Assembly: GCA_002493865.1 (NCBI GenBank)
Contig: DLAC01000010.1
Span: 31,017-95,016 of the forward strand
Direction: 5' to 3'
Origin: Bacillales bacterium UBA7057
GTDB lineage: Bacteria; Bacillota_I; Bacilli_A; RF39; UBA660
DNA: 64,000 nucleotides
Shown: positions 14,711 to 38,577 of the stretch, piece by piece
Numbering within the stretch: position 1 is the stretch's first letter
Layout of the letters: the number at the start of each line of letters is the position of its first letter
Position numbers and translations under genes: made by a program
Notes under the pieces: generated by a model
The model's database searches: none
What the model was told of the DNA's origin: nothing
The model's input: only the letters and a program-made list of their open reading frames with translations

Positions 14711-15721
14711 GTGAAGGATGTAAGCGTTATTGTACCAATTTATAATAAAGAAGCTTTTTTGGATCAATCCTTAAATAGTTTATTAAACGGAGTAGGTAAA
14801 GATTCAGAAATCCTATTAATTGATGATCATTCTACGGATCGGAGTTTTTCTATTGCCGAAGATTTCGCTAAGAGGGATTCTCGAATTCGACTTTTAAGAA
14901 ATAAAGTAAATCGTGGTGTTTCCTATGCAAGAAACAAAGGAATCAAGGAAGCAAAAGGAAAATATATTGGATTTTTTGATGCTGATGATCAGGTCGATTA
15001 TGGATTTTATGATAAATTGTGCCAGAGTGCTGCTTCCATAGATATAGCCCCTGATATTGTTGTTGGTGGATTCAATTGTATTGATGTGAATCATCTCGAA
15101 ATTGTCTTTCCTACTTTGTCTATCTTAGTTGATGGAGTTCCTTTTTCTCTTCAACGAAGAAAATTTGCATCTGGTGAAACGTTTTCTTGCTGTAACAAGA
15201 TCTATCATCGAGACTTTTTAGAGCAAAAATATTTTCCTGATTTTAGCAAGGAAGATATCTATTTTCATTATTGGACCATGAAGACTGCTAGTAAAGTTTT
15301 AGAACATAGGGAAACCCAGTATTACTATCATCCACAGGAAGATGGAAGAAATTTTTCTTATTACAATCTTCCGAATGGGGATTTTTATAGTTTTGTAGAA
15401 GGTTATCAATGGCTACAACAAAAAATTGGAAATGATCAGTATTATCTTTCCTCTTTTCATAAGGCAGTTGAGCAAGCTTTTTATGGTTATATTCAATCCA
15501 TTACTAGTTGGCATATATCTTTTGATGATCAAGTAGATTTAATTGGAACGATGATTGATTACTGTACAAGAGTTCATCATATGGATTTAAGTCATTTAGA
15601 TGTTGTCAGTTTAAATTACTATAAATTCTATCAGAAAAAATACTCGGAAACTTCACTAGAAGATTTAACAAAAAAACTAAATCGTCTTTCTTTCAATTAT
15701 CCAAGACGAAAGAGGAGATAA
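14711..15721 (+). CDS. glycosyltransferase family 2
   Basis: GTG start after RBS AGAGGGGG. GT-A motifs SVIVPIYNKE, DDHSTD, DADD. Paralogous to the next gene. Confidence 0.7.
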   Translation: MKDVSVIVPIYNKEAFLDQSLNSLLNGVGKDSEILLIDDHSTDRSFSIAEDFAKRDSRIRLLRNKVNRGVSYARNKGIKEAKGKYIGFFDADDQVDYGFYDKLCQSAASIDIAPDIVVGGFNCIDVNHLEIVFPTLSILVDGVPFSLQRRKFASGETFSCCNKIYHRDFLEQKYFPDFSKEDIYFHYWTMKTASKVLEHRETQYYYHPQEDGRNFSYYNLPNGDFYSFVEGYQWLQQKIGNDQYYLSSFHKAVEQAFYGYIQSITSWHISFDDQVDLIGTMIDYCTRVHHMDLSHLDVVSLNYYKFYQKKYSETSLEDLTKKLNRLSFNYPRRKRR

Positions 15722-15834
15722 AAAATTTGTATGGTTCAATGAAGCAATACATCATGAGGTGTTAGTTCAAATAGATATATTATTCATTAAAAATTATTTA
15801 TACTATTATAAGAATGTTTTAGGAGGTGGTAACA

Positions 15835-16884
15835 GTGAAGAAAGTGAGTGTAGTTGTACCAGTTTATAATAAACAACCATATTTAAAAGAATCATTAGAG
15901 AGTCTACTTTCTGATTCCTCTGAAAATATAGAATTTTTACTAATTGATGATGCATCTACAGATGGTAGCCTTTCTATATTGGAGAATGCCTCTAAAAATG
16001 ATTCTAGAGTTCGTATTTTAAAAAATTCATCAAATTTAGGAGTTAGTTCTACTAGAAATAGGGGAATTTGTGAAGCAAAGGGCGAGTATATTGGTTTTTT
16101 TGATGCCGATGATATTGTAAGCTCAGGTTTTTATCAAACTTTGTATCAGACTGCAACTCATTATAGAAAACGTCCAGATATGGTTGTTGGGAATCTAACT
16201 ATCTATGGTGGACTTTCAACGTATTTATTGGGAAAGCAATCTTATACAAATACTCAAGTGGAAATTCCGAATGTGTTACAACCGTATCTTCCATTTTCTC
16301 TACAACGACATCAATTTTTTACGAAAGAAGTGCCTTCTTGTTGTAATAAAATTTACCATCGTAACTTTTTAAAAGAAAGAAGGTTCCCAGATTATATCAA
16401 AGAAGATGTTTATTTTCATAGTTGGGTAAGTCATGATGCCAAGCGTGTGGTAGAAGATAGAAGTGTTAATTATTATTACTGTGTCAACCATAGTGAGCGA
16501 GATAATTCTGCTTTTAAGCATCCATGTGGAGATTTTATTGAACTGATTGATGCTTATTATTGGAGTCTTCTAAAAATAGGAGATTCTCCATTATTAGTAG
16601 ATGCACTTAAGAAGTTTCAATGTCAAATTTTAGAATCATTTTTACATCAATGTGTTTGTTGGGAAATACCATATCCTGAAAAGGTTAAATTAATTGGAAC
16701 TGTTTATGATTACTGTGTTCATCTTGATCCAGAATTTCAAAGTACAACTACAGATTTATCTTTGAAAATTATTGAAATGTATCAACAGTATCTAGTAGCA
16801 AATCAAAATCCAACTGATGATATCAGAAAAATAGAAAAAAGATTATCTGTATTATCAAAAATATATCCTAGATGTAGATCATAA
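15835..16884 (+). CDS. glycosyltransferase family 2 (paralog of the preceding gene)
   Basis: RBS AGGAGG followed by GTG at 15835. Motifs VVVPVYNKQ, DDASTD, DADD. About 45% identity to 14711..15721 across the full length. Confidence 0.7.
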   Translation: MKKVSVVVPVYNKQPYLKESLESLLSDSSENIEFLLIDDASTDGSLSILENASKNDSRVRILKNSSNLGVSSTRNRGICEAKGEYIGFFDADDIVSSGFYQTLYQTATHYRKRPDMVVGNLTIYGGLSTYLLGKQSYTNTQVEIPNVLQPYLPFSLQRHQFFTKEVPSCCNKIYHRNFLKERRFPDYIKEDVYFHSWVSHDAKRVVEDRSVNYYYCVNHSERDNSAFKHPCGDFIELIDAYYWSLLKIGDSPLLVDALKKFQCQILESFLHQCVCWEIPYPEKVKLIGTVYDYCVHLDPEFQSTTTDLSLKIIEMYQQYLVANQNPTDDIRKIEKRLSVLSKIYPRCRS

Positions 16885-18717: not shown

Positions 18718-18801
18718 AAATGATTCCAAAAACGGAATTGTTTTTTTCTTTATAGCAACAAAACCATTCTTTTGCATAAATTAAATTAGAGGAGGGATAT
18801 T

Positions 18802-19347
18802 ATGGCAAAATCAAGAGAAATTGTTACAAAAGCAGTCGTTGGGAAGGGAAAGAAAACATTTGTGACGACAGATGTAATTACCCCAGAAATTATGCCTACA
18901 ACTATCCTTGGTGCTTGGATTATCAATCATAACTTTTCTGGAAGAAAGAATGGAGATAAGGTAGCAATTACCGGTAGTTACGATGTCAATATCTGGTATT
19001 CTTGTATGAACGATAGCAAAACAGAGGTTGTAAAGAAAAGTGTTCAATATAATGAAAATGTTACAGTTCCAAAGAAAAATGAAGCTTCACTTTCTGATGA
19101 AGAAGTGGTTATCCGTAGTTTGAAACAGCCAACTTGTACGCGTGCTGAGATTATTGACGGGAAAATAGAATTTACAGTAGAAAAAGAGTTAGGAATCGAA
19201 TTAGTTGGAGATACAAAAGTAAAAATTAGTTATGAAGAAGAAGAGGATCCATGGGAAGATATCGAGGATGATCAAACAGAAATAGAATTAGAACAGGCGG
19301 AACAGCAAATAGATAATGAAATCCAAGAAGAATTTCTAGATGAATAA
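18802..19347 (+). CDS. cotE: spore coat protein CotE (Bacillus type)
   Basis: 181 aa. REIVTKAVVGKGKK...ILGAWIINH...acidic C-terminus aligns closely with B. subtilis CotE, and the synteny with miaB-ymcA supports the call. Confidence 0.8.
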   Translation: MAKSREIVTKAVVGKGKKTFVTTDVITPEIMPTTILGAWIINHNFSGRKNGDKVAITGSYDVNIWYSCMNDSKTEVVKKSVQYNENVTVPKKNEASLSDEEVVIRSLKQPTCTRAEIIDGKIEFTVEKELGIELVGDTKVKISYEEEEDPWEDIEDDQTEIELEQAEQQIDNEIQEEFLDE

Positions 19348-19427
19348 AGTATCGTTATGGTACTTTATTTTTTTGTATTCTATTGGTTTTAGTGTTAAAA
19401 TAAGTACATAGTAGGTGAGGTGTAAAA

Positions 19428-20276
19428 ATGAGTCGTAAAACAGAAAAAAATATAAAGATTGCTATTGTAATATTAATAATAATATTAATAGGATTTTTAG
19501 TTTTTATTTTAGTAGATAGCTTCTTATCAGAAAATAACAAAGAAAAAGATAAACCAATATTCTCAAATAATCCTATTTCATCACCAATGCAAAATCAGGA
19601 AGCAAACGAACCAGAAGAGCAGGAAATTGAAATCTCTATGGAGTTGGCGGAGAAACTTTATAATATGCTTTATGAACCAATGGATTGTGGAAGTAGATTA
19701 TTCTCTCATTATGGTAGTGACAAGATAGTTCCAAATGATTTTAGTAACTTAGAAAAAAATTTTATTGTAGTTATGAATCTAAATAAAGAAAGGGTTCTAC
19801 ATCAGAATCCAAAATATACAAAAGAGGAAATTATTGAAACAAAGAATCGTATTTTTGGTAAAGAAGCCACGTTCGAAATTATAAATAGCAATAGTTGTTA
19901 TCACTTTCATTTGGGAGAGGATGGAAATTACACCGTCGAATGGCAATGCGGTGGAGATATGTGTAGTCCATTAACTCTTACAAAACTTTCAAAGGCTGTA
20001 CAGAAAGGGAATAAAATATATATAGACCAAATGGTAATTTTTAGTTTGACAGGTGAATCTGGTGAAAGTGATGAGAATACAGCTTATTATTACCAAGACT
20101 ATAATAGAACAAAGCTGCTTGGAAAAAAAGAATTTATAGATTCATATGATTATATGATTAATTCTGATAAACTCGATTGGAATCAATATGAAAATCAAGC
20201 AAGTATTTATCAATATACTTATCAAGATAATAATGATGGAACTTATACATTTATTCAAATAGAAAAAATTAAATAA
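19428..20276 (+). CDS. membrane-anchored (N-terminal TM) Cys-containing extracytoplasmic protein, cassette copy 1
   Basis: 282 aa with an N-terminal TM helix (IKIAIVILIIILIGFLVFILV). The extracellular part has five conserved Cys. Paralogous to 22615..23472. Confidence 0.6.
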   Translation: MSRKTEKNIKIAIVILIIILIGFLVFILVDSFLSENNKEKDKPIFSNNPISSPMQNQEANEPEEQEIEISMELAEKLYNMLYEPMDCGSRLFSHYGSDKIVPNDFSNLEKNFIVVMNLNKERVLHQNPKYTKEEIIETKNRIFGKEATFEIINSNSCYHFHLGEDGNYTVEWQCGGDMCSPLTLTKLSKAVQKGNKIYIDQMVIFSLTGESGESDENTAYYYQDYNRTKLLGKKEFIDSYDYMINSDKLDWNQYENQASIYQYTYQDNNDGTYTFIQIEKIK

Positions 20277-20372
20277 CAAGGACTTCAGTTTAAACTGTAG
20301 CCCTTTTTGTGTGTTTGGTGCAATTATAAAATGCCCCCTTTCATATATTAAAGTAGAAAGGAGATATGAAAT

Positions 20373-22514
20373 ATGGAATTTTTTACGTTTCCTATGGAAA
20401 CTATGAGAATTATAGCTAATTACAATGATAATAGTGCACATTTTACTGGTGATCCTAAGGATTATCCAATTGCCAATGCTGGGGCTGATAATTCACGATC
20501 AGCTATATTTGCACGAGTTGATTTGAGAGTTGTCGCAAAAAGAGGGGTTGGAAATACTGTTACAAATACGGTATGGTTACAGACTGTTAATCCAGTTAAG
20601 ACACCAACTTTTGAAGATTATGCATTTATAACACTTACTCATTGGAACGATAGCGACAATCTTATGAAAAAATGGGAAGTAGGATTAATAATCCCAAAAG
20701 GAGAACTTATTTGCGGTGAAGGAACTGATGGTGTAACTGAAAATCAAATTCAAATAGCTTGTGGTAAAGGTTATTCAGATAATTGGACACAAAATACATC
20801 AGGTGCTTGGGTTATGACTGGAGATGCTAGAAAACCTGAAGAAGTATTTTATGTAGATCCTTCATTTACAACTATAGTGGATTCAAGAGGACTTGCTTTT
20901 CAATCATTACCTACTTTTTATGGTACACCTTTAGGAAGAAATACAAAGTTAAGGCAAGTTAACGTTACTACTAATGTACAAGAGGCATATTCAAATGCAT
21001 CTGGAAACATGATTGGTATGGTAAATCCTGGAGTTTATAATCTTTTACAAGTAAGTGGTGAATATGCTCAAATTGAATCTGGTCTTTGGGTAAAATTAGT
21101 AAGTGGAAGAGTTGTTATTTTAGAGGCAGAAACTGCCCCAAGTACATTAGGCTCTATTAATAATACTTCAATTGGTAGTAATGTAAATATTACCATTAAT
21201 AAGCAAATGGAAAATGTTGAGCATACATTAAGGTATGAATTTGGTTCAACTAATGCAACAATTGCTACCAGTGTAGATTCAAGTTATCAATTCAATTTAT
21301 CAAAAGATTTATATTATCATATGATAAATTCTAAATCTGCTAGCATGACTATATATTGTGATACTTATTCTAATGGAAATTTAATTGGAACTACTTCTAC
21401 TGTATTTATAGTATCTGCAGTTGATGATGATGTAAAACCAGATGTATCAATTGCCACCTCTGTTGATTCTAAAACAATGGAATTAACAAATGATGAAAAT
21501 ACGATTATTGCTGGAGTTACAGATCTTACATATCAAATAACTGCAGAGCCAAAATATGATGCAAGTATTAATTCTTATCAATTAGAAGATGCTACTGGCA
21601 TTAAAAGTGTATCTGCAAATGGAACTTTAGAAAAAGTAAATTTAACAGATGCACTAAAGTATCGTGTAATTGATAGTAGAGGATATAATGATTGGTATTT
21701 AAAAGATTTTGATATTGTTTCTTATACAGGAATTGGATTGATCTTTAGTGCAAATAGGTCAAATAAAAATAATATGGAAGAAGTAACAATTAATTATTCT
21801 GGTACTTTTGATAACAAAGTTTTTGGTACAAAGGAAGGGGCTTTAACTAACCAGTTAAGTGTTGCATTATATTCTAGAACATCAGATACAGAAGAGTGGG
21901 AAAAGGTATTAGATTTAACACCGACTGTTTTAGAAAACAATTACTATCAAGAAATGATTTTACCTATGGGATTTAATAAAAATACAACTTACTATTTCAA
22001 AATAGTTGTAAATGATTTATTAACAAAAGCGGAAGTTGAATATGAAGTTAAAGATGAGCAAAGTCTAAATTTTGAATTTATATATCCGATTGGACGTGGG
22101 TTCTTAGATTTTACGAATACAGATTATAGTAATTATCTTGGATTTACTTGGGAAAAAACATTATTAGGAGTATTTCCAGTAGGATTCGATGGTACTCAAG
22201 CAGAATTTAATGTTATAGGTAAAAAAGGAGGAAGCAAATTTTTACAAGCTCATAGCCATACTTTTTCAGGAACTACTAGTCAAAATGGTAACCATTATCA
22301 TACAACGATGGGGGTAGAGGCATCAAGTAAGACTAATCCGTCTAAAACAGTTTTAAGACCTGCTGGATGGGACGGTCAGACAAGTGTTGTTTCTGGTAAT
22401 GCTGCGGGTGACCATGCACATACTTATAGTGGTACTACTAGCACTGCTGGTAATGGTAATGCACAGAATTTACCACCATATGAAGTCGTTAATTTCTGGA
22501 AAAGAATTGCATAG
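20373..22514 (+). CDS. phage tail-fibre-like protein with C-terminal tail-collar (MdpB-like) domain, cassette copy 1
   Basis: 713 aa with no signal peptide. C-terminus FLQAHSHTFSGTT...GDHAHTYSGTT...NLPPYEVVNFWKRIA fits the phage tail-collar fibre domain. The N-terminus is conserved with 23759..25922. Confidence 0.7.
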   Translation: MEFFTFPMETMRIIANYNDNSAHFTGDPKDYPIANAGADNSRSAIFARVDLRVVAKRGVGNTVTNTVWLQTVNPVKTPTFEDYAFITLTHWNDSDNLMKKWEVGLIIPKGELICGEGTDGVTENQIQIACGKGYSDNWTQNTSGAWVMTGDARKPEEVFYVDPSFTTIVDSRGLAFQSLPTFYGTPLGRNTKLRQVNVTTNVQEAYSNASGNMIGMVNPGVYNLLQVSGEYAQIESGLWVKLVSGRVVILEAETAPSTLGSINNTSIGSNVNITINKQMENVEHTLRYEFGSTNATIATSVDSSYQFNLSKDLYYHMINSKSASMTIYCDTYSNGNLIGTTSTVFIVSAVDDDVKPDVSIATSVDSKTMELTNDENTIIAGVTDLTYQITAEPKYDASINSYQLEDATGIKSVSANGTLEKVNLTDALKYRVIDSRGYNDWYLKDFDIVSYTGIGLIFSANRSNKNNMEEVTINYSGTFDNKVFGTKEGALTNQLSVALYSRTSDTEEWEKVLDLTPTVLENNYYQEMILPMGFNKNTTYYFKIVVNDLLTKAEVEYEVKDEQSLNFEFIYPIGRGFLDFTNTDYSNYLGFTWEKTLLGVFPVGFDGTQAEFNVIGKKGGSKFLQAHSHTFSGTTSQNGNHYHTTMGVEASSKTNPSKTVLRPAGWDGQTSVVSGNAAGDHAHTYSGTTSTAGNGNAQNLPPYEVVNFWKRIA

Positions 22515-22525
22515 TTTTATTTATT

Positions 22526-22556
22526 ATGAACAAACTCAAATATGAGTTTGTTCTTT
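22526..22556 (+). terminator. rho-independent terminator
   Basis: 11-bp stem GAACAAACTCA/TGAGTTTGTTC with a 4-nt loop, followed by TTTTAT. Confidence 0.7.
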
Positions 22557-22614
22557 TATGTTGTTTTTTATAAAATTAAATGATAAGATAATGACATAAT
22601 AGGTGAGTTGTAAA

Positions 22615-23472
22615 ATGGAAAAAAAGGTTGAAGTAAGATTAAAAATCATTATTATAGTTTTAATATTAGTAATAATAGGATTGGGAGGATTTATTACAGT
22701 TGATAAGTTTTTATTAGAAAATGATTCAAAAGTGAAACAGAAAAATCCAAATTCTACTAACAAGCCAGTTCTGTCAGAAAGTCCTAAACCAACACAAGGT
22801 GGGGACATTCCAGAACCAGAGGAGAAAGAAATTGCAATTTCTATTGATTTAGCCAAAACAATTTATAATAAATTTTATGACGCAGAAGATTGTGGAGAAA
22901 GATTTTCTAAATATTATAAATATGATAAAGTAACGGCAGATGACTTAACTAATGAGGATAAAACATATATCATATCATTAAATATAGCAAAAAGAATGGA
23001 CGAACATATATTTACTGAAGAAGAAATTTTAAAAACTAAAAATCAACTTTTAGGAGAAAATACTACATTTGAAATTACGAATAGCAAAGAATGTAAAAAT
23101 TTTTTCAAATTGAATGATGGGACTTATGATTTAAATCGTTATTGTAGTGGTGGTATGTGTACACCAAGCGAAATTACAAATATTAAAAGGGCTACAAAGA
23201 GGGGAAATATCATTTCTATAGATCAAAAGGTAATATTTGAGAAATATCAAAATCATGATAATGATGATGGAATGACATCATACTATTACCAAGATGTAGA
23301 TCAAACTATATTATTAGAAAAAAGAGATTATATCGATAATGATCAATATTTAGAGCAATATAATAAAATTGATTGGGAAAAATATGAGAATCAAGTAAGT
23401 GTTTATCGCTACACTTATCGGGATAATGAAGATGATACTTATACATTCATACAAATGGAGAAAATAAATTAA
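22615..23472 (+). CDS. membrane-anchored Cys-containing extracytoplasmic protein, cassette copy 2
   Basis: Paralog of 19428..20276 with the same TM anchor and Cys pattern. Start placed at ATG 22615 by analogy with copy 1 (TAGGTGAG RBS-like sequence conserved). Confidence 0.6.
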   Translation: MEKKVEVRLKIIIIVLILVIIGLGGFITVDKFLLENDSKVKQKNPNSTNKPVLSESPKPTQGGDIPEPEEKEIAISIDLAKTIYNKFYDAEDCGERFSKYYKYDKVTADDLTNEDKTYIISLNIAKRMDEHIFTEEEILKTKNQLLGENTTFEITNSKECKNFFKLNDGTYDLNRYCSGGMCTPSEITNIKRATKRGNIISIDQKVIFEKYQNHDNDDGMTSYYYQDVDQTILLEKRDYIDNDQYLEQYNKIDWEKYENQVSVYRYTYRDNEDDTYTFIQMEKIN

Positions 23473-23503
23473 ACTATTAAAATAATTTTAGGTCGTTAGC
23501 AAG

Positions 23504-23539
23504 GTCGTTTTTTATGCTGTTTTGTTAACGACTTTTTTT
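23504..23539 (+). terminator. probable terminator (weak)
   Basis: GTCGTT...AACGAC stem with a ~17-nt loop, followed by TTTTTTT, downstream of 22615..23472. Confidence 0.35.
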
Positions 23540-23758
23540 GGTTCTAATTTTAATAGTAAAAAGTATTTTTAGAAATCTAATATTTAATAAACTCTAATTT
23601 TGATAATTAATTTTCCTTTGTGATAAAGTTAAACTATTAATATTTTCAAAAGGATTTTTTTCAGTACGATGAAATCGCTAAAATAATTTTTTCTGTGTGT
23701 TTGATGTAATTATAGAAAGTCTCTTTTCATATATTAAAGTAGAAAGGAGGTATGAAAT

Positions 23759-25922
23759 ATGGAATTTTTTACGTTTCCCATGGAGTCTTTAAATGTTTCG
23801 CAAAGATATGATGGAGATGGACATATAGGTCATATAAAAGGAAATCCCAAAGATTATCCAATAGATATAGTTGGTGGTGATTATGGAGTACCGAATGCCG
23901 TTTTTGCAACAGTAGATCTAAGGGTTGTGAAAAAAAAGAGGACCATATGATAATACAGTAACAAATACTGTATGGTTACAAACTGTTAACCCTGTTAGAA
24001 CACCAACTTTTGAAGATTATGCATTTATGACACTAACACATTGGAATGATGGAGATACTGCAATGAAAAAGTGGCCAGAGGGATCTATTATTCCAAAAGG
24101 ACAAATTATATGTTATGAAGGAACTAATGTAAATGTTGCCTTACATATTCATATGACCTGTGGAAGAGGCTATTCCAGCGGATGGACAAAAAGTACTACT
24201 GGAAAACAGGTTATAACGGGAGATTGTAAGCCACCAGAGGATGTATTATATATAAATCCTTCATTCACTAAGATAGGAACAAGGTATGGAAAAAATGGTC
24301 TTAATTGGAGAAATATTCCATCTTCTTATGGAACCCCAGTTTCAAGGAACAATACAATTCGTCAAGTTAATGTAATTGCTACAATGCAAGATGCTTATTC
24401 TTCAGCTGGTGGATCCTCAATTGGATTGGTTAATCCAGGGATTTATAATCTTTTACAAGTGAGTGGAGAATATGTTCAAATTGAATCTGGTCTTTGGGTA
24501 AAATTAGTAAGTGGAAAAGTTGTTATCTTAGAAGCTGAAGTAGTACCAAGTACATTAAATTCTATTAATGATACTTCTGTTGGTAACAGTATAAATATTG
24601 TTATTAATAAAAAAACATCAAATGTTTATCACACATTGAGATATATTTTTAATTCTACCAATGCGACTATTGCTACTAATGTAGATTCAAGCTACCAATT
24701 TGAACTATCACAAGATTTATATTATCATATGACAAACTCTAAGTTTGCTAATATGACTATATATTGTGATACTTATTTTAATGGAAGTTTAATTGGAACT
24801 ACTTCTACTACATTTAAAGTATTTGCTGTTGATAGCGATGTAAAGCCAGAGGTATCAATTACTACTTCTGTTGATTCTAAAACAATGGAATTAACAAATG
24901 ATGAAAGCACTATTATTGTCGGAGTTACAGATCTTACATATCAGATAACTGCACAGGCAAAATATGATGCCGGTATTAATAGCTATCAATTGGAAGATGC
25001 TACTGGTATGAAAAGTGTATCTGTAAATGGAATTTTAGAAAAAGTAAATTTAACAGATACACTAAAATATCGTGTAATTGATAGTAGAGGATATGACAAT
25101 TGGTATTCAAAAGGCTTTAACATTGTTTCATATACACCAGTTGCATTATCGTATCGTGCAGTTCGAGAAAATGAAACTAATTTGGAAGAGGTAACAATTA
25201 ATTATTCTGGCGTTTTTGATAACAAAGCGTTTGGCTCAAAAGAAGGTGCCTTGACTAACGAATTAGAGCTAGAGTTATATTATCGTAACGCAGGGGAAAA
25301 TAATTGGATAAAGATTTCATCTTTAAATCCTACCATAGTAGGAAATAAGTATGAAGGAAAACTTTTATTACCTATTACTTTTGATAAAAATACAATTTAT
25401 TACTTTAAAATTAATGCAAAGGATTTGCTTACTGAAGTAGAAGTTGAAAAAGTATTACTGGACCAAAAGGGTCAATTTTTTGATTTTCTATTCCCAGTAG
25501 GAAGTGGATTTATAGATTTTACAGACATTAATTATACAAATTATCTCGGTTTTACTTGGGAAAAAACTTTATTAGGAAAAACGCCAGTTGGGTGTGATAT
25601 TAGTCAATCAGAATTTAATACTTTAGGCAAAATAGGTGGATCAAAAGGTTTGCTTGCGCATAGCCATAGTTTTTCTGGAGGTACTGACCAAAATGGTAAT
25701 CATACTCATACAACGATGGGGGTAGAGGCATCAAGTTTAACGAATCCTTCAAAAACAGTTTTAAGGCCTGCTGGATGGGATGGGCAAACAAGTGTTGTTG
25801 AAGGTAATGCTACTGGTAATCACATGCATAGTTACAGTGGAACTACTAGTACTTCAGGTGTTGGTAATGGACAAAATTTACCTCCATATGAAGTAGTTAA
25901 CTTTTGGAAGAGAATTGCTTAG
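23759..25922 (+). pseudogene. tail-fibre-like protein, cassette copy 2, disrupted by a +1 frameshift in an A8 tract
   Basis: ORFs 23759..23950 and 24027..25922 are the N-terminus and the body of a paralog of 20373..22514. Removing one A from A8 (23930-23937) restores ...VVKKRGPYDNTVTNTVWLQTVNPVRTPTFEDYAFMTLTHWND..., colinear with copy 1. Confidence 0.65.
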
Positions 25923-26005: not shown

Positions 26006-26034
26006 TTGACAGCACAAGAAAGTAATATTATAAT
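26006..26034 (+). promoter_or_regulatory. sigma-A promoter of rpsP (TTGACA-17-TATAAT)
   Basis: Perfect -35 TTGACA at 26006-26011, 17-nt spacer, perfect -10 TATAAT at 26029-26034, about 30 nt upstream of the rpsP start. Confidence 0.6.
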
Positions 26035-33685: not shown

Positions 33686-34969
33686 ATGGATCAGAAGTTA
33701 TTAGACATAGAAGGGCTAGTATCTGGTAGTTCTAGTATTAATCAAGAATCATCAAATTTAACTGAAGTTTGTGCTTCTTTGTATTCACTTGTTACAAGTT
33801 TAAGAGAAAATGAAGATTTTAAAACGATGATTGCCAGTTCTGAGTACTTTGGTTCTATTGATATATTGAATCAACAAGTTCCAAGATATGCAGAGGCATT
33901 ATTAGAATTTTCAAAGTTTTTATCGAATTATGTATTAGAAAATTATTCAGATACAGATGCAGAAATGAAAGCAAAAGTCGAAGCAAATTTAGCAGAAGCA
34001 ATTGCGAAACTTGGAGAAACTGAGGAGACTGTTGGAACCGGCGTAGACTATAGCAAAATTTCTACTACCGCAGCAGGAGCCTTATCCGGAGACTTTATTG
34101 ATAGCTCAAAAATTCAAAAGTCAACGTTTGAGGATGGAGAGTTAGAATTTATTACTCGTCCAGATGGAAGTGTTCAGATTGTTAAGAATGGGTCAGTGTT
34201 AGGATACACGACACAAGATGGAATTGGAAATGCACAGACAACGACGAGTGCAACGACAGGTAAAGAAACAGAAGAATTGCATACTTCTATATCGTCAGGG
34301 GAAATTGCTGGTACTGTTGCATCTATGGCAACAGTAGGTACAGGAGCTGTAGCAGGTAGTACTACTACTGGTGATGCTACTGCTTCTGCTGATATGATTG
34401 CCTCTGCGGATGCTACCATTCCTACAGATACTACCGCGATAGATCCAGGATTCAGTGGTACTACTGCTATGACTGCTCAAAATCCTACTCCCGGTACAAG
34501 GCTAATGGATGTACCAGACGTAAACAGTGAGTTTAAAGCATATATGGATTATAGAACTATTACTTCCAAAGATTCTAAACAATATGCAATGCAACATAGT
34601 GAAAATTGTTTTACAGATGAGTCTGGATTCCGAAAGATTCGTGATGAGAATGGTGAGGAATATTATATGGGTGCCTTGGGTAGTTATTATACCGAAGGTG
34701 AAGTTGGAAAAAAGTATCAAATTACACTTGATACTGGTGAAACATTTAAGTTTGTTGCTGGAGATCAAAAAGCAGATATTCATACCAATTCTACCAATCA
34801 ATATCGTGATACGGGAACAACAACCAATGTGGTTGAGTTTATTGTAGATGATAATCAAATCCCGTCAGATTGTAAAAGGGCTGGTAGTATGAGTGGAGCC
34901 TATGGTGGGCAATTTGGAGGAAACGTTGTTAAAATTGAAATGCTAGACGATGGAAAACCTATTATGTAG
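33686..34969 (+). CDS. T7SS polymorphic effector paralog 1: LXG-like N-terminal module plus unknown C-terminal domain
   Basis: N-terminal ~190 aa are shared with 35446.. and 37040.. (SSSINQESSNLTEVC...NEDFKTMIASS.YFGSID...VPRY.EALL.FS.FLSNYVLENYSDTD.EMKAKVEANL; DYSKIST.AAGALSG.F.DSSKI.KSTFE.GELEFITRPDGSVQIV). A Thr/Ala-rich linker follows, then a unique ~170-aa C-terminal domain (YMDYRTITSKD...). Confidence 0.6.
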   Translation: MDQKLLDIEGLVSGSSSINQESSNLTEVCASLYSLVTSLRENEDFKTMIASSEYFGSIDILNQQVPRYAEALLEFSKFLSNYVLENYSDTDAEMKAKVEANLAEAIAKLGETEETVGTGVDYSKISTTAAGALSGDFIDSSKIQKSTFEDGELEFITRPDGSVQIVKNGSVLGYTTQDGIGNAQTTTSATTGKETEELHTSISSGEIAGTVASMATVGTGAVAGSTTTGDATASADMIASADATIPTDTTAIDPGFSGTTAMTAQNPTPGTRLMDVPDVNSEFKAYMDYRTITSKDSKQYAMQHSENCFTDESGFRKIRDENGEEYYMGALGSYYTEGEVGKKYQITLDTGETFKFVAGDQKADIHTNSTNQYRDTGTTTNVVEFIVDDNQIPSDCKRAGSMSGAYGGQFGGNVVKIEMLDDGKPIM

Positions 34970-35025
34970 GAACTTTCTATATATATATTATTTTTAGATT
35001 ATAAAGGATAAGGAGCGTGAACGAT

Positions 35026-35337
35026 ATGCCAAATGGTTCAAATGATTTTAGTTTAAATTATGAAAATATTAGTGAAGTAATTACTCAAGTTACTCAAGGA
35101 AAGGACAAAATTGCTGAGATTGTAGATAAGCTTAGTGGGATTGTTGCTAATTTGGAAACTGCATGGGAAGGTACTGATGAGGCCTCATATGTAGAGAAAA
35201 TAAATAGCTATAAACCTCATATTTTAAAATTGCAAAAAGCCTATGAAGATGCAGCGATTGCACTACAGAATATGAGCAATCAATATCAAGAAAAGCAGGC
35301 GGAAAATACATTAAAGGTTCAGAGTGAGTTGTATTAA
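35026..35337 (+). CDS. WXG100-family small helical protein
   Basis: ~104 aa with a central W-x-G (ETAWEGTDEASY). ATG 35026 is preferred (RBS AAGGAG 10 nt upstream). Confidence 0.55.
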   Translation: MPNGSNDFSLNYENISEVITQVTQGKDKIAEIVDKLSGIVANLETAWEGTDEASYVEKINSYKPHILKLQKAYEDAAIALQNMSNQYQEKQAENTLKVQSELY

Positions 35338-35445
35338 GACGAATCTGTACTAAAATTTAGTTGATTGTTGCTTTACAGTCGACTTTTTCGTTTTATAAGA
35401 ATTATGTTATTTTGACAGATAAAAGTCATATTAGGAGGTTACGAA

Positions 35446-36696
35446 ATGAATGAAAAAAAGTTAAGTATAGAAGAACTTGTATCTAGTAGTTCTAGTATTA
35501 ATCAAGAATCATCCAATTTAACAGAGGTTTGTTCTTCTTTGTATTCACTTGCTATGAGTCTAAGAGAAAATGAAGATTTTAAAACGATGATTGCAAGTTC
35601 TCAATATTTTGGTTCGATTGATAGTCTCAATCGGGAAGTTCCAAGATATTCGGAAGCATTATTGCAGTTTTCAAGATTTTTATCTAATTATGTATTAGAA
35701 AATTATTCAGATACAGATGAAGAAATGAAAGCAAAGGTCGAGGCCAATTTAGAAGAAGCTATTTCTAAACTAGGAGAATATGGAATCGACTACAGTAAAA
35801 TTTCTACTTCTGCTGCCGGTGCTTTATCAGGAAACTTTGTTGATAGTTCAAAAATTCGAAAGTCAACGTTTGAAGAGGGAGAACTGGAATTTATTACTCG
35901 CCCAGATGGAAGTGTTCAGATTGTTAAGGATGGAACTGTGTTAGGATATACGACACAAGATGGAATCGGGAATGCACAATCAACGATGGGTGCAAATACA
36001 GCTACAGGAACAGAAGAAGTACATACATCTATGTCAAAGGAAGAAATCGCAGGTACTGCTATGGCAGCAGCTACAAGTGCAGGAATTGCAGCTAGTGGTA
36101 CTACTTCAGTAGGTGAAACAACAGTTACAGAAGAAGTTCCTGAAACATCAGCTCCAACTTTATCTACAGGTCAAGTTCCTTCTGGCCTTTCTTCTGGATA
36201 TTTTGGAGAGGTTCATACAAAAGGTCAAGCGAGTGCTAATATTAAAGAATCTTCTGGAAATATAACAACAGGGAATCAATCCTATACAATCGTTCCAGAC
36301 AGTGAATATACAAAGGCACCAGGTACAATTTCAGAAAGTGATTATCATTTATTAATTGCACAAGTTGCTGGAGAAGCTGGAGCTTCGGTAGAACCTAAAA
36401 ATTATAAAGATGATATGTTAGGAGTAACAACGACTGTATTAAATCGTCTTGAAACAGAAGGAAAATATGGAGATTCTGTAAGAGAAGTTCTTGAAGGTGG
36501 ATATTTCCCATTTGGAGAAACGTATAGGGCATATGAGCCGGGAGGTAAATACTATAATACTGACTGGGGACAAGATAAATTAAGACAAGCAACGGAGGTT
36601 GTTAATGATGCCTTAGGTGGGGCAAGAAATCTAGAAAGTAATGTATATTATTATTCTGGAAACGGTGAGTATAATAGATTCTCAGATGTATTATAA
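35446..36696 (+). CDS. T7SS polymorphic effector paralog 2: LXG-like N-terminal module plus SleB-like cell-wall hydrolase domain
   Basis: Shared N-terminal module. C-terminus LLIAQVAGEAGASVEP...GVTTTVLNRLETEGKYGDSVREVLEGGYFPF matches the Hydrolase_2/SleB cell-wall hydrolase fold (AxAxGE...VxNR...FP). Confidence 0.65.
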   Translation: MNEKKLSIEELVSSSSSINQESSNLTEVCSSLYSLAMSLRENEDFKTMIASSQYFGSIDSLNREVPRYSEALLQFSRFLSNYVLENYSDTDEEMKAKVEANLEEAISKLGEYGIDYSKISTSAAGALSGNFVDSSKIRKSTFEEGELEFITRPDGSVQIVKDGTVLGYTTQDGIGNAQSTMGANTATGTEEVHTSMSKEEIAGTAMAAATSAGIAASGTTSVGETTVTEEVPETSAPTLSTGQVPSGLSSGYFGEVHTKGQASANIKESSGNITTGNQSYTIVPDSEYTKAPGTISESDYHLLIAQVAGEAGASVEPKNYKDDMLGVTTTVLNRLETEGKYGDSVREVLEGGYFPFGETYRAYEPGGKYYNTDWGQDKLRQATEVVNDALGGARNLESNVYYYSGNGEYNRFSDVL

Positions 36697-36719
36697 AATG
36701 AAAATAGGAGTGTAGAATA

Positions 36720-37025
36720 ATGGATTATAGTTTTTTACCAGAAGAGATGGAAAATGCATGTGTAGAGATTGAAAATGGGGTAGAAGAAATTCGTTTGCAA
36801 TTAGAAAAAATTGTGAATGTAGCAAACACGATTAGCGATTCTCCGAATGATTGGAAAGGTAAAGATGCAACTAAATATATTGAAAATATGTTAACTTTTG
36901 AAGGCGATATGTTAGATTTAAACAGTGCTTATTTATCAGCTGTCAATACTTTGAGAGGGACAGCGGAAGTTGCGAATAATCGAGCAATTGAAACTACAAA
37001 TCAAGTCAATCGAGAATTGTTTTAA
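36720..37025 (+). CDS. WXG100-family small helical protein
   Basis: 101 aa with W-x-G at NDWKGKDATKY. Its MDYSF N-terminus is shared with the 46252..46557 (-) protein. Confidence 0.55.
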   Translation: MDYSFLPEEMENACVEIENGVEEIRLQLEKIVNVANTISDSPNDWKGKDATKYIENMLTFEGDMLDLNSAYLSAVNTLRGTAEVANNRAIETTNQVNRELF

Positions 37026-37039
37026 GGAGAATAGAGAAA

Positions 37040-38377
37040 ATGGATGGAGAAAAAATAAAATTAAGTGAAGCGGAAATCTTAGCACATAGTGAGACCTTAA
37101 ATACAGCTGCTCAAAATATCAATGATACATGTAAAAAACTCTACAGTATCATTACAAATTTGCAAGAAAGTGAAGCATTTAAGTCTAAAGAAGCCGCTAT
37201 GAATTATTATCTGCGCATTCAAGAAATAAATGCTGTCGTACCAAAGTTTATAGAGGGAATATTAAAGTTTTCTCAATTCTTATCTGGCTATTTATTAGAA
37301 AATTATAGAGAAACAGACGAAATGGCTAAGCAAATTCAGGAGTCATTTGACGAGTCTGTCAATCAATTAGCTGCCATTGGACTGATTGGGGGAGTAGTTA
37401 ATATAGGAAAAATTTCTTCTACTGCACAAGGCGCTTTAAATGGAAATTTTATTAGTAGTGATCAAATATATAAAGAGGCATTTGAGGATACTGGTAACTT
37501 GGAATTTGTGACTCGTGATGATGGTGCGATTATGATTACTAGAGATGGGGTTCCAATTGGATTTACCACAAAGGATGGTATTTCTAATCCTATGTCATCA
37601 AAAGTATCTAAACCATCTGGGATGGGAAATGATCCAAGATATCAACAATTGAGCCCATCTGGAATGGGAGATGACCCAAGATATAAAAATATAAGACCAG
37701 AAACTCCATTAACAGAGGGAATGGGAAATAATGAGGCAATTATTAAAGCACGTGAAAATGGTCGTTTACCAAATCCAACAGATAAGAATGGAATCGGTGA
37801 TGACTCAAAACACGAAGATGCCTACTCTAATCAATATCCATCTGCCATGAAAGGCGATCCAAGATATATTGGGGACGACTCAAGGCATGAAGATACGTAT
37901 TCTAGTCAATCATCTTTAGGGCCCGTTCAAAAAAATTCATCTACGCTTGATCAAGGCTTTAATTTTTCAACTACCAATTCTAGTGGAAAATCAAATTCAA
38001 CAAATGCACAATCTCCATCAATTTTCAAAAGTGGTGTAGAGGCACAAAAAAATTCGTCTTCCCTTGATCAAGGATTTATTGTTTCAACCACCAGTTCTAA
38101 TGAAAAAACAAGTTTAGCAAGTCTACATTCATCATCAGGATTAGAAAGTTTGAGTTCATCTAAAACGGGACAAGCTCAAACGACTTCATCTGCCCCTTTA
38201 CGAGAAGTTACTATCCCATCATTAAATGCTAATGAAAAGGCGGATTTAGCTAATGTACATTTTTCAACAGGAGCAGAAATTTTGAATTCTTTAGATTCGG
38301 GGCAGACTCAAACTAATTCTCCTACGATTGGGATTGCTTCTTCAGGAATAAATACGAATGATGGAGTAGATTCCTAA
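37040..38377 (+). CDS. T7SS polymorphic effector paralog 3: LXG-like N-terminal module plus S/T/N-rich repetitive C-terminal region
   Basis: N-terminal module homologous to paralogs 1 and 2. C-terminal ~260 aa are low-complexity with internal repeats (GMGNDPRY x3, GDDS(K/R)HEDxYS x2, KNSS(T/S)LDQGF x2). Confidence 0.55.
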   Translation: MDGEKIKLSEAEILAHSETLNTAAQNINDTCKKLYSIITNLQESEAFKSKEAAMNYYLRIQEINAVVPKFIEGILKFSQFLSGYLLENYRETDEMAKQIQESFDESVNQLAAIGLIGGVVNIGKISSTAQGALNGNFISSDQIYKEAFEDTGNLEFVTRDDGAIMITRDGVPIGFTTKDGISNPMSSKVSKPSGMGNDPRYQQLSPSGMGDDPRYKNIRPETPLTEGMGNNEAIIKARENGRLPNPTDKNGIGDDSKHEDAYSNQYPSAMKGDPRYIGDDSRHEDTYSSQSSLGPVQKNSSTLDQGFNFSTTNSSGKSNSTNAQSPSIFKSGVEAQKNSSSLDQGFIVSTTSSNEKTSLASLHSSSGLESLSSSKTGQAQTTSSAPLREVTIPSLNANEKADLANVHFSTGAEILNSLDSGQTQTNSPTIGIASSGINTNDGVDS

Positions 38378-38466
38378 AGTTAAGAATAGTTGAACTTATA
38401 TTTTGCTTTTAGGTTTATGCTTTTTTGAATAGTTTTTTCTGTCATATGACTTAATTTTATTGTATT

Positions 38467-38496
38467 AAAAGTAACACAAATAATGTTACTTTTTGT
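38467..38496 (+). terminator. rho-independent terminator
   Basis: AAAAGTAACA-caaataa-TGTTACTTTT followed by TGTTTG. Separates the effector genes from essC. Confidence 0.65.
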
Positions 38497-38529
38497 TTGC
38501 TAAATTCTTTAAAAACTTATTGGAAAATT

Positions 38530-38557: not shown

Positions 38558-38577
38558 ATAATAATGGGAGTTGGACT

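What the first reader, a model, noticed from the sequence alone, without database searches (positions are those of the whole stretch)
19428..25922. Tandemly duplicated 'membrane protein + phage-tail-collar fibre' cassette inserted between cotE and rpsP, outside any prophage
Two consecutive copies of a two-gene unit sit between cotE and the rpsP promoter, where B. subtilis has mutS-mutL. Each unit is a TM-anchored, Cys-containing extracytoplasmic protein (282 and 286 aa) followed by a ~710-aa protein with no signal peptide. The C-terminus of the second gene (HSHTFSGTT...GDHAHTYSGTT...NLPPYEVVNFWKRIA) matches the phage tail-collar/MdpB receptor-binding fibre domain. Both copies keep conserved upstream sequences (TAGGTGAG(G/T)TGTAAAA before the TM gene; TTCATATATTAAAGTAGAAAGGAG before the fibre gene) and have diverged by roughly 20-30% at protein level. 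No capsid, terminase, tail-tube, baseplate, lysis or integrase genes lie nearby. The fibre N-terminal ~150 aa (…HWNDSD…GTDGVTENQIQIACGKGY…) loosely resemble a degenerate M23/LytM-like beta fold. I could not classify the function of the cassette. Candidates are a domesticated receptor-binding module, a contact-dependent surface system, or a tailocin-independent adhesin.
Basis: partly seen in the sequence, partly recalled or inferred. Interest (0 to 1): 0.75.

Follow-up and report, generated by a model that had tools for sequence, protein, structure and literature searches.

The report
Phage-fibre lysin genes with membrane partners
Two copies of a gene pair sit between ordinary bacterial genes: one gene encodes a phage tail-fibre protein fused to a cell-wall-cutting domain and the other a small membrane protein, and they most likely form a virus-derived killing protein with its antidote, now half-decayed in this strain.

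Summary
The cassette is real: TM1 (19428-20276), Fib1 (20373-22514), TM2 (22615-23472), Fib2 (23759-25922), between cotE and rpsP, with no phage structural genes nearby.

- Fib2 is frameshifted in an A8 run. An intact 720-aa allele with A7 exists in another sample.
- The copies are more diverged than stated: Fib 67% identical, TM 44%.
- The C-terminus is Pfam Gp10_C plus DUF859, not PF07484.

The M23 guess holds. A profile of the N-domain hits the phi29 gp13 M23 domain at E=1.5e-10. Fib1 has lost all metal and catalytic residues; Fib2 keeps them.

Fib fuses a phage lysin-like module to the last tail protein of streptococcal-type siphophages. In phages these parts are separate genes.

The genes are under purifying selection (dN/dS 0.06-0.45). 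TM genes have sigmaA-like promoters. Fib genes share a different conserved promoter box.

Across relatives, Fib genes are repeatedly deleted or broken while TM genes persist. One solitary TM has dN/dS 0.21.

Best reading (confidence ~0.4): a particle-free, tail-fibre-derived bacteriolysin with a membrane-anchored immunity protein. The export route and the role of the dead M23 are unexplained.

The parts
19346..19374 (+). cotE terminator-like hairpin plus T-run that precedes the cassette
   Evidence: Read from the sequence. The same element precedes TM in L007 and L015.
19373..19401 (+). SigmaA-like promoter of TM1 (TTGTAT-17-TAAAAT)
   Evidence: An equivalent TTGTTT-17-TAAGAT/TAAAAT lies upstream of TM2 and of the L001 TM. 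Function is inferred, not shown.
19428..20276 (+). TM1: 282-aa N-in single-pass membrane protein with a Cys-containing ectodomain; putative immunity or partner protein
   Evidence: AF2 pLDDT 76: helix 3-35, disordered 34-61, alpha+beta ectodomain. It is 100% identical in at least 24 conspecific contigs. No Pfam, NCBIfam, PADLOC or significant PHROG hit.
20279..20308 (+). Terminator-like hairpin after TM1
   Evidence: It is conserved after TM genes in L001, L007 and L015.
20321..20363 (+). Conserved Fib promoter box (CAATTATAAAAT ... TTTCATATATT) and ribosome-binding site; the -10 CATATATTA lies at 20342-20350
   Evidence: It is conserved in all six Fib loci compared, including a different chromosomal context.
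20373..22514 (+). Fib1: 713 aa. Degenerate M23 domain (1-~175), SH3b-like segment (~185-255), DUF859 (260-562), Gp10_C-like HxH tip (567-713)
22528..22553 (+). Intrinsic terminator after Fib1
   Evidence: Its remnant is part of the deletion scar in L015.
22561..22589 (+). SigmaA-like promoter of TM2 (TTGTTT-17-TAAGAT)
22615..23472 (+). TM2: 285-aa paralogue of TM1 (44% identical)
   Evidence: P0191 is a 285-aa protein on a contig of the same length, 108,871 bp, as the one carrying P0012 and P0187; its identity to TM2 was not checked.
23707..23749 (+). Second copy of the Fib promoter box and ribosome-binding site; the -10 CATATATTA lies at 23728-23736
23759..25922 (+). Fib2: 720-aa paralogue with an intact M23 motif set, interrupted in this strain by a +1 frameshift
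23930..23937 (+). A8 homopolymer that carries the frameshift (A7 in the intact allele of L022)

Best explanation
This is a chromosomal, phage-derived two-component module, duplicated in tandem.

**Components.** 'Fib' is a single polypeptide. A phi29-gp13-type M23 peptidoglycan endopeptidase domain and an SH3b-like segment are fused in front of the last tail protein of streptococcal-type siphophages (DUF859 core plus a T4-gp10-C-like HxH tip). 'TM' is an N-in, single-pass membrane protein with a disulfide-capable alpha+beta ectodomain on the cell surface.

**Most likely mechanism (inferred).**
- Fib is a particle-free, tail-fibre-derived bacteriolysin: the tip and DUF859 part bind a surface receptor of related cells, and the M23 domain cuts their wall.
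- TM, made constitutively, neutralises incoming Fib at the surface of kin cells, probably by binding the M23 head.
- Fib has no export signal, so it would be released by lysis. A holin is adjacent in one relative, and the Fib promoter has a sigmaE/K-like -10 that would fit release at mother-cell lysis.

**State in this strain.** The system is half-decayed. Fib1 is an intact ORF with a dead active site. Fib2 has a live active site but is frameshifted.

**Shown versus inferred.** Shown: domain identities, loss of catalytic residues, the frameshift, purifying selection, the promoter/terminator layout, and the loss/retention pattern. Inferred: killing, immunity, binding and release route.
For: **Domains**
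- DUF859 and Gp10_C score above Pfam cut-offs, and PHROG 372 'tail protein' hits at 5e-42.
- The N-domain profile hits the M23 domain of phi29 gp13 (3csq) at E=1.5e-10, followed weakly by lysostaphin and other M23 enzymes.
- The N-domain has 319 relatives. Of the ten put through Pfam, some carry Amidase_2+SPOR, Prophage_tail, fn3 or Big_2.
- Family-wide H20, D34, H90, H125 and H127 are present in Fib2. In Fib1 four of them are N, A, Q and Q. The motif definition is from PMC9662197.

**Fusion of phage parts**
- In phage contigs L020/L021, DUF859, Gp10_C and the M23+SH3-like protein are three separate neighbouring genes.
- In phage T12 the DUF859 homologue is the last tail gene before the holin and endolysin.
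- None of 410 matching phage records covers the N-terminal third of Fib.

**Not a prophage.** Three chromosomal contexts (cotE-rpsP, an ABC-transporter locus, and a murG/murB locus) carry no phage genes.

**Functional constraint.** dN/dS is 0.13 for Fib1, 0.22 for Fib2 and 0.18-0.28 for TM genes.

**Toxin/immunity-like asymmetry**
- Fib is deleted in 52 conspecific contigs, leaving TM1 plus a 68-aa stump.
- Fib is cleanly excised in L015, leaving a promoter+terminator scar between two intact TM genes.
- Fib is pseudogenised in L025/26 and absent in L027.
- A solitary TM after rplQ is kept at dN/dS 0.21 over dS 0.66.
- In none of the close-family loci whose flanks could be read does Fib stand without a TM gene.

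**Other support**
- TM genes have sigmaA-like promoters and Fib genes have a different conserved box.
- The live M23 head and the upstream TM are the most diverged parts (dN 0.33 each), while the tip is conserved (dN 0.06).
- Fib paralogues recombine: P0006 and P0007 are chimeras.
Against: - No activity, binding or expression data exist.
- Fib lacks any export signal, and no holin is found in the window.
- The best-conserved Fib type has a dead M23 domain under strong purifying selection (dN/dS 0.06). A simple 'M23 kills' model does not explain this, and one relative (L005) carries only this dead type.
- Known M23 bacteriolysins have signal peptides and use FemABX-type immunity, not a membrane-anchored protein.
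- The conspecific contigs that retain orphan TM1 are 100% identical, so they are near-clonal and weak evidence of selection on their own.
- The TM fold match is weak and non-specific.
- The N-domain AF2 model failed (pLDDT 39.6).
- The whole family is tiny: 12 TM clusters in 5.8 billion proteins. The comparative sample is therefore about 8 locus types.
Confidence: 0.4

Rival explanations
1. Self-displayed surface fibre or adhesin. Fib is attached to the producer's own envelope through its non-catalytic M23/SH3b-like head, which binds either peptidoglycan or the TM ectodomain as a membrane dock. The phage tip points outward for adhesion or contact-dependent recognition.
For: - The dead M23 head of Fib1-type proteins is the most constrained part (dN/dS 0.06). 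Degenerate M23 domains are known protein-interaction hubs (PMC9662197).
- The top fold matches of the TM ectodomain include the PARC6 intermembrane-space domain.
- The divergence of each TM tracks that of the M23 head of the gene downstream of it.
Against: - Fib has no signal peptide and no dedicated secretion genes.
- TM genes persist under purifying selection where no Fib gene is adjacent, which a pure docking role does not predict.
- Fib genes are lost again and again.
Confidence: 0.17
2. Sporulation-linked function. Fib is made in the mother cell from a sigmaE/K-type promoter. It either decorates the spore surface as a fibre or acts as a mother-cell wall hydrolase. The cotE neighbourhood would then be meaningful.
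For: - The Fib -10 box (CATATATTA) has the CATAnnnTA form and sits 20-30 nt upstream of the start codon. In this window the same form sits in that position only upstream of cotE and cotJB.
- SigmaE and sigmaK share this -10 (PMC3789822).
- A distant homologue, P0033, has CATACATT upstream.
- Mother-cell proteins need no signal peptide.
- The cotE-rpsP site is occupied in three related lineages.
Against: - The motif occurs at chance frequency in the window overall: 56 observed against 58 expected.
- The -35 region fits neither AC nor ATA at the canonical spacing.
- The second locus (ABC transporter) and the P0033 locus are not next to spore genes.
- TM genes have sigmaA-like promoters.
- Frequent loss of Fib argues against a core spore role.
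Confidence: 0.15
3. Inert remnant of an old prophage tail/lysis region that is simply decaying. TM would be an unrelated lineage-specific membrane protein or a former phage moron.
For: - Fib2 is frameshifted here.
- Fib is pseudogenised in L025 and deleted in most conspecifics.
- The holin is degraded in L001.
- Catalytic residues are lost in Fib1.
Against: - Purifying selection is strong across species: dN/dS 0.13-0.22 at dS 0.55-0.7.
- Each gene has its own conserved promoter and terminator.
- The fused architecture is absent from 50,697 phage genomes and from IMG/VR.
- TM has no phage relative.
- The module occurs in at least 2 chromosomal sites without any other phage gene.
Confidence: 0.12
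4. Anti-phage role. TM is a superinfection-exclusion-type surface protein that blocks phages carrying Fib-like tail tips or M23 tail lysins. The Fib genes are the leftover phage partners or decoys.
For: - TM is membrane-anchored with an outward-facing domain and appears constitutively expressed.
- TM is retained without Fib.
- Fib is built from phage tail and lysin parts.
Against: - No PADLOC hit.
- No TM homologue in any phage or prophage collection searched.
- Fib itself is under purifying selection, which a decoy or leftover role does not require.
Confidence: 0.08

Closest known systems
Bacteriophage phi29 gp13 (tail-knob morphogenesis protein, PDB 3CSQ), M23 D,D-endopeptidase domain
   Same: It is the only solved structure the Fib N-domain profile matches significantly (E=1.5e-10, residues 169-328). 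It has the same long H(x)nD spacing and HxH motif, and it has a phage tail-associated origin.
   Different: gp13 carries the M23 domain at its C-terminus behind a lysozyme domain and is part of a virion. Fib carries it at the N-terminus of a fibre protein with no virion. The Fib1 type has lost all metal ligands.
Streptococcal siphophage distal tail proteins with DUF859 (e.g. phage T12 gp55, phage 315.5 minor structural protein)
   Same: Residues ~256-713 of Fib align with these proteins (E~1e-23, ~25% identity). They have the DUF859 plus HxH-tip architecture and are the last tail gene before the lysis cassette.
   Different: The phage proteins lack the M23/SH3b-like head and sit in complete tail modules. 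None of 410 phage records covers the Fib N-terminal third.
Class III bacteriocins / bacteriolysins (lysostaphin, zoocin A, enterolysin A)
   Same: They combine an M23 catalytic domain with a cell-surface targeting domain to lyse related bacteria, and they come with a dedicated immunity gene.
   Different: These have Sec signal peptides and SH3b or TRD targeting domains rather than phage fibre modules. Their immunity works by FemABX-type cross-bridge modification, not by a membrane-anchored ectodomain protein (my knowledge and PMC9662197).
Phage tail-like bacteriocins (R/F-type tailocins such as diffocin and monocin)
   Same: They are domesticated phage tail machinery in the chromosome, targeted by receptor-binding fibres and released by lysis rather than secretion.
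   Different: Tailocins need sheath/tube/baseplate genes and kill by membrane puncture. Here only the fibre protein is present, it carries its own wall hydrolase domain, and a candidate immunity gene accompanies it.
Membrane-anchored or periplasmic immunity proteins of wall-targeting toxins (e.g. TipC for the T7SS effector TelC; Cmi for colicin M; Tsi proteins of T6SS amidases)
   Same: The topology (extracytoplasmic domain held at the membrane), one-to-one gene adjacency with a wall-targeting protein, and the existence of orphan copies all match the TM family. This comparison is from my knowledge.
   Different: There is no sequence or significant fold similarity. The partner here is not a T6SS/T7SS or colicin-type effector.
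Degenerate LytM/M23 proteins (EnvC, NlpD, SpoIIQ, Csd2)
   Same: As in Fib1, the catalytic residues are lost while the domain is conserved and works by binding. Csd1/Csd2 is an active plus degenerate pair, as Fib2/Fib1 may be (PMC9662197).
   Different: Those are secreted or membrane-anchored housekeeping, division or engulfment proteins, not fusions to phage fibre modules.

Membership tests
Peptidase M23 (LytM-type), phi29 gp13 subgroup | Sequence homology to an M23 catalytic domain | tested here: met
   A 46-sequence profile of the N-domain hits 3csq residues 169-328 at E=1.5e-10, then other M23 chains at E 0.0025-0.8. Homologues show sub-threshold Pfam M23 hits. Direct Pfam scans of Fib1 and of the two Fib2 ORFs gave no M23 hit.
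Peptidase M23 (LytM-type), phi29 gp13 subgroup | H(x)nD and HxH zinc/catalytic motifs (PMC9662197) | tested here: inconclusive
   Fib2 (and P0185, P0007-11) have H, D, H90 and HIH/HVH. Fib1 (and P0001/3/5/6) have N20, A34 and Q125-I-Q127. The feature is therefore met for Fib2 and not met for Fib1, which is a degenerate member.
Peptidase M23 (LytM-type), phi29 gp13 subgroup | M23 beta-sheet fold | tested here: inconclusive
   The AF2 model of Fib1 residues 1-260 had pLDDT 39.6 and is unusable.
DUF859 (PF05895) siphovirus tail protein | Pfam gathering score | tested here: met
   99 bits (Fib1) and 87 bits (Fib2) against a cut-off of 28.8. PHROG 372 'tail protein' hits at 5e-42.
Gp10_C (PF21939) baseplate/fibre tip domain | Pfam gathering score and HxH repeats | tested here: met
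   44 bits against a cut-off of 27. HSH, HYH and HAH lie at residues 627, 641 and 681.
Phage tail collar (PF07484, MdpB-like) | Pfam match | tested here: not met
   No hit at E<=0.1 for either Fib. The resemblance of the ...NLPPYEVVNFW... ending is by eye only.
SH3b cell-wall-binding domain | Sequence or structure match to SH3b | tested here: inconclusive
   The segment at ~185-255 is shared with lysin-like homologues and shows an SH3-like pattern. A profile search of PDB gave nothing significant; the best hit was an SH3 domain at E=0.64. There is no Pfam hit.
Prophage tail module | Neighbouring capsid, terminase, tape-measure, Dit/Tal, holin-endolysin or integrase genes | tested here: not met
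   None appears in the window ORFs or in the Pfam-annotated flanks of L001-L014 and L023. The only exception is a divergent holin in L005.
R/F-type tailocin | Sheath/tube/baseplate gene set | tested here: not met
   Same evidence as for the prophage tail module. The rest of the genome outside the 64-kb window could not be searched.
Class III bacteriocin (bacteriolysin) | Secreted M23 enzyme with a targeting domain | tested here: inconclusive
   The M23 and targeting modules are present. There is no Sec signal by inspection of the N-terminus MEFFTFPMET..., and lytic activity is not testable here.
Class III bacteriocin (bacteriolysin) | FemABX-type immunity gene | tested here: not met
   The neighbouring TM proteins have no Pfam or NCBIfam family.
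Toxin-immunity gene pair (generic signature) | Adjacent pairing, orphan immunity genes, and immunity retained under selection without the toxin | tested here: met
   Pairing is seen in two loci. Orphan TM genes occur in L007, L015, L017/L028 and L027. The solitary TM has dN/dS 0.21.
Toxin-immunity gene pair (generic signature) | Physical neutralisation of the toxin by the immunity protein | not testable with these tools
   No complex prediction or experiment was available.
SigmaE/sigmaK-dependent sporulation gene | -10 CATA-type box with a -35 ATA or AC at proper spacing; sporulation-specific transcription | tested here: inconclusive
   The -10 is present and conserved, the -35 does not fit, and expression is not testable.

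The most novel reading that the evidence does not exclude
A previously undescribed class of bacterial weapon: a single-polypeptide 'tailocin without a tail'. A phage receptor-binding fibre carries its own M23 wall-cutting or wall-binding head. It is made without an export signal, possibly in the sporulating mother cell, and released when that cell lyses. Kin are protected by a new family of membrane-anchored, NTF2/cystatin-like immunity proteins that co-diversify with the M23 head. The conserved dead-M23 paralogue acts as a non-catalytic partner or as an alternative killing or binding form.
Probability: 0.15. Interest if true: 0.8.

Novelty: new variant of a known kind. Interest (0 to 1): 0.5.

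Why it matters
If the lysin-plus-immunity reading is right, phage tail fibres can be domesticated as stand-alone, receptor-targeted lytic proteins, without the tail machine that tailocins need. They would also come with a new kind of surface immunity protein. That would give a natural template for engineered 'RBP-lysin' antimicrobials against Gram-positive gut bacteria. The strongly conserved dead M23 head would add an example of a pseudo-enzyme in an offensive or adhesive role. If the reading is wrong, the locus is still a clear case of a lineage-specific, selected, phage-derived gene pair whose function is open. Its very narrow distribution (a few uncultured 'Bacillales' MAG lineages) and the lack of a cultured host limit immediate impact.

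Tried and rejected
- AF2 of the Fib1 N-terminal 260 aa with a 9-sequence alignment gave pLDDT 39.6 and could not be used for fold search.
- The afdb50 fold library was unavailable.
- PADLOC, NCBIfam and Pfam gave nothing for TM. A PDB profile search with the TM alignment also gave nothing.
- The SH3b assignment could not be confirmed by a PDB profile search.
- A phmmer search of PDB with full-length Fib1 gave nothing.
- An IMG/VR scan with the TM alignment found no relative. The scan with the Fib alignment found one phage lysin-like gene only.
- The metagenome scan with the Fib alignment returned one distant DUF859 protein and was not followed.
- A genome-collection scan found only 3 loci, all in MAGs titled 'uncultured Bacillales bacterium'.
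- tblastn with the L005 holin found no holin in the window.
- CATAnnnTA is not enriched in the window as a whole. The spoIVFA-like upstream region shows no such box. The sporulation-promoter idea therefore remains a lead only.
- I considered export by the nearby T7SS and rejected it. Fib lacks a WXG/LXG-type helical N-terminus, and the second locus is not near a T7SS.
- I considered a prophage remnant and ranked it low, because of the dN/dS values and the absence of phage neighbours in three contexts.


Full report
**What is there.**
- The window is low-GC (~30%) chromosomal DNA of a spore-former. It runs miaB, a YlbF/YmcA-like gene and cotE (PF10628, E=3e-47), then four + strand genes, then a perfect sigmaA promoter (26006-26034) and rpsP.
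- The four genes are TM1 (19428-20276, 282 aa), Fib1 (20373-22514, 713 aa), TM2 (22615-23472, 285 aa from the ATG) and Fib2 (23759-25922).
- Fib2 is split into 63-aa and 631-aa ORFs by one extra A in an A8 run at 23930-23937.
- The 631-aa product is what the public record of this contig carries (P0012, 100% identical).
- A sample from elsewhere has the same gene with A7, giving an intact 720-aa protein (P0185/L022).
- Fib1 and repaired Fib2 are 67% identical. TM1 and TM2 are 44% identical.
- Composition does not differ from the flanks.
- No phage structural, integrase or lysis gene appears in the window ORFs or in the Pfam-annotated flanks of conspecific contigs.

**What Fib is.**
- Pfam finds DUF859 (residues 260-562, E=3e-28) and Gp10_C (567-712, E=5e-11), both above their cut-offs. 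PF07484 Collar gives no hit. PHROGs gives 'tail protein' families.
- Against 50,697 deposited phages, residues ~256-713 match tail proteins of Streptococcus and Lactococcus siphophages at ~25% identity. No record covers the N-terminal third.
- In phage T12 the homologue is the last tail gene, after Dit and the host-specificity fibre and just before the holin and endolysin.
- A search of 1.8 billion representative proteins with residues 1-260 found 319 relatives. Most are 250-350-aa proteins carrying the domain at their N-terminus.
- Ten of these relatives were put through Pfam. Some carry Amidase_2+SPOR, Prophage_tail, fn3 or Big_2, and three give sub-threshold Peptidase_M23 hits.
- A 46-sequence profile of the domain hits the M23 D,D-endopeptidase domain of phi29 gp13 (3csq, residues 169-328) at E=1.5e-10, then lysostaphin-type M23 enzymes weakly.
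- Across 126 family members, H20, D34, H90, H125 and H127 (Fib1 numbering) are near-invariant. These correspond to the H(x)nD and HxH motifs that define M23 (PMC9662197).
- Fib2 and its orthologues have all of these residues. Fib1 and its orthologues have N20, A34, Q125 and Q127. Fib1 is therefore a degenerate M23. Fib2 is a potentially active one that is frameshifted in this strain.
- Residues ~185-255 are shared with the lysin-like relatives and look SH3b-like, but a PDB profile search did not confirm this.
- The AF2 model of residues 1-260 failed (pLDDT 39.6).

**Origin of the architecture.**
- In phage contigs L020/L021, a DUF859 gene, a Gp10_C gene and the closest non-fibre relative of the M23+SH3-like head (P0034) are three separate neighbouring genes at the end of a tail module.
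- In an IMG/VR phage the head is a stand-alone 300-aa protein. It lies between a 131-aa ORF with a hydrophobic C-terminus (holin-like by eye, not tested) and a 685-aa ORF.
- Fib therefore fuses parts that phages encode separately. The fused form was found only in chromosomal contexts.

**What TM is.**
- AF2 (pLDDT 76) predicts an N-terminal helix (residues 3-35), a disordered Pro/Glu-rich linker and an alpha+beta ectodomain. Four Cys are conserved.
- No family in Pfam, NCBIfam or PADLOC matches, and PHROGs gives no significant match. No phage relative exists.
- The family has 12 clusters among 5.8 billion proteins. It occurs in three loci of GTDB species representatives, all titled 'uncultured Bacillales bacterium'.

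**Selection and regulation.**
- Against orthologues at dS 0.55-0.7, dN/dS is 0.13 for Fib1. Within Fib1 it is 0.06 for the dead M23 head and 0.06 for the tip.
- dN/dS is 0.22 for Fib2. Its head is the most diverged part (dN 0.33) and its tip is conserved (dN 0.06). TM genes give 0.18-0.28. These are selected genes, not neutral debris.
- Each gene is its own unit. Terminator-like hairpins follow cotE, TM1, Fib1 (22528-22553), TM2 and Fib2.
- TM genes are preceded by sigmaA-like TTGTAT/TTGTTT-17-TAAAAT/TAAGAT promoters.
- Fib genes are preceded by a different box, GTAATTATAAAAT-N(6-8)-TTTCATATAYT. It is conserved in all loci compared, including a different chromosomal context.
- The -10 of this box has the CATAnnnTA form shared by sigmaE/sigmaK promoters (PMC3789822). 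In this window that motif lies 20-30 nt upstream of a start codon only for cotE, cotJB and the two Fib genes.
- However, the motif is not enriched overall (56 observed against 58 expected) and the -35 does not fit. This remains a lead only.

**Comparative picture.**
- *Window-like contigs at the cotE-rpsP site.* The 68-aa stump is on record in 52 contigs, and all 8 loci read carry TM1 (100% identical) next to it. The stump joins the mutated Fib1 start to the last ~65 codons of Fib2, a 5.2-kb deletion.
- *Second lineage at the cotE site (L015).* It has two intact TM genes. Between them is a scar made of the Fib promoter box joined directly to the Fib terminator.
- *Third lineage at the cotE site (L025/26).* It has a TM1/TM2 chimera followed by a Fib2-type gene broken by at least two frameshifts.
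- *ABC-transporter locus in another species.*
  - The order is Fib(dead)-TM-Fib(live)-TM1-type.
  - The last gene is frameshifted in an A-run.
  - A degraded holin lies upstream.
- *Variants at the ABC locus.* One has an intact divergent holin (PF05105), a chimeric Fib and one TM. Another has only a TM.
- *Solitary TM.* It sits after rplQ in two diverged genomes with collinear flanks, and has dN/dS 0.21 at dS 0.66.
- *Distant homologue.* The full-length Fib relative P0033 lies in a murG/murB neighbourhood, followed by an unrelated membrane protein.
- *Overall pattern.*
  - TM occurs without Fib in four configurations.
  - In none of the close-family loci whose flanks could be read does Fib occur without TM. 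Several family members were seen only on short contigs whose neighbours were not examined.
  - Fib paralogues recombine (chimeras P0006 and P0007).
  - Gene order is cyclically permuted between loci.

**Interpretation.**
- A wall-targeting, receptor-binding protein is repeatedly lost, while a surface-exposed partner is retained under selection. This asymmetry is the usual signature of a toxin/immunity pair.
- Together with the domain content, it makes a particle-free, tail-fibre-derived bacteriolysin plus membrane-anchored immunity protein the best single reading (confidence ~0.4).
- The live M23 head and the TM gene upstream of it are the fastest-evolving parts while the tip is conserved. That fits immunity directed at the head, but it rests on two or three comparisons.
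- Two facts resist this model. There is no export signal and, in the window, no holin. Also, the dead-M23 paralogue is the more strongly conserved form, and it is the only Fib in one genome.
- These two facts keep three alternatives alive: a self-displayed fibre docked by TM, a sporulation-linked role, and an anti-phage role for TM. An inert prophage remnant is the least consistent with the selection data.
- In the window strain itself the system is half-disabled: Fib1 is catalytically dead and Fib2 is frameshifted.

**Novelty and score.**
- I found no description of this fused architecture or of the TM family. Only three papers in the library mention DUF859, and none was opened. Searches for related bacteriolysin systems gave only the classical M23 bacteriolysins and tail lysins.
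- I rate it a new variant of a known kind (phage-derived lytic bacteriocin with immunity), with interest 0.5. It is clearly non-trivial and selected. Against that, it is confined to a few uncultured lineages, partly decayed in this genome, and has an inferred rather than demonstrated mechanism.

Noticed in passing
window 33686-43194: A T7SSb-type locus. An EssC-like FHA+FtsK/SpoIIIE ATPase lies at 38578-43194. It is preceded by three paralogues (33686-34969, 35446-36696, 37040-38377) that share a ~170-aa N-terminus and have different C-termini. One C-terminus gives a weak Cell Wall Hydrolase (PF07486) hit. These look like LXG-like polymorphic toxins. Conspecific contigs carry a WXG100 gene here.
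   Followed up: partly
L001 15384-16353 (also L016): The fourth gene of the ABC-locus cassette is a TM1-type gene disrupted by a frameshift in an A-run at codons 2-4. This is a second homopolymer frameshift in the family, besides the window's Fib2 A8. Phase variation and decay cannot be told apart here.
   Followed up: partly
L005 9402-9725 (-), L001 9530-9849 (-): A divergently oriented Phage_holin_4_1 gene (107 aa) sits immediately upstream of Fib in one relative and is broken in another. No counterpart exists in the window.
   Followed up: yes
L023 186-3588: A distant full-length Fib homologue (P0033, ~43% identical) lies in a murG/murB/divIB neighbourhood. It is followed by a membrane protein that I judged unrelated to the TM family by eye (not compared formally). 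Its upstream region contains CATACATT.
   Followed up: partly
window 1109-1117 and 18775-18783: CATAnnnTA boxes lie 20-30 nt upstream of cotJB (1137-1568) and cotE. They have the same form as the box upstream of both Fib genes. cotJC (Mn catalase) follows at 1570-2136.
   Followed up: partly
window 904-979 (-): A tRNA-His (GTG) gene lies just upstream of the cotJ genes.
   Followed up: yes
window 6387-8849: An 820-aa surface protein with a thioester domain (TED) and five SpaA-type prealbumin-fold repeats; a likely covalent adhesin.
   Followed up: partly
window 14711-16884: Two tandem genes (336 and 352 aa) that are visibly similar over their length by eye (not compared formally). Their counterparts in conspecific contigs carry Glycos_transf_2. 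They lie downstream of a larger cell-wall polysaccharide gene set.
   Followed up: no
window 49151-52184: A SpoIVFA-like protein with a Peptidase_M23 match, apparently degenerate by eye (49151-49795), and a SpoIVFB-like M50 protease (49830-50531). After one intervening gene comes a sigma-70-family sigma factor (51408-52184). Unlike the Fib N-domain, this M23 domain is detected directly by Pfam.
   Followed up: partly
L020/L021 5276-9062: A phage tail module in which DUF859 (453 aa), Gp10_C (136 aa) and the M23+SH3-like protein P0034 (353 aa, with a C-terminal coiled coil) are separate neighbouring genes. These are the unfused counterparts of the Fib domains.
   Followed up: yes
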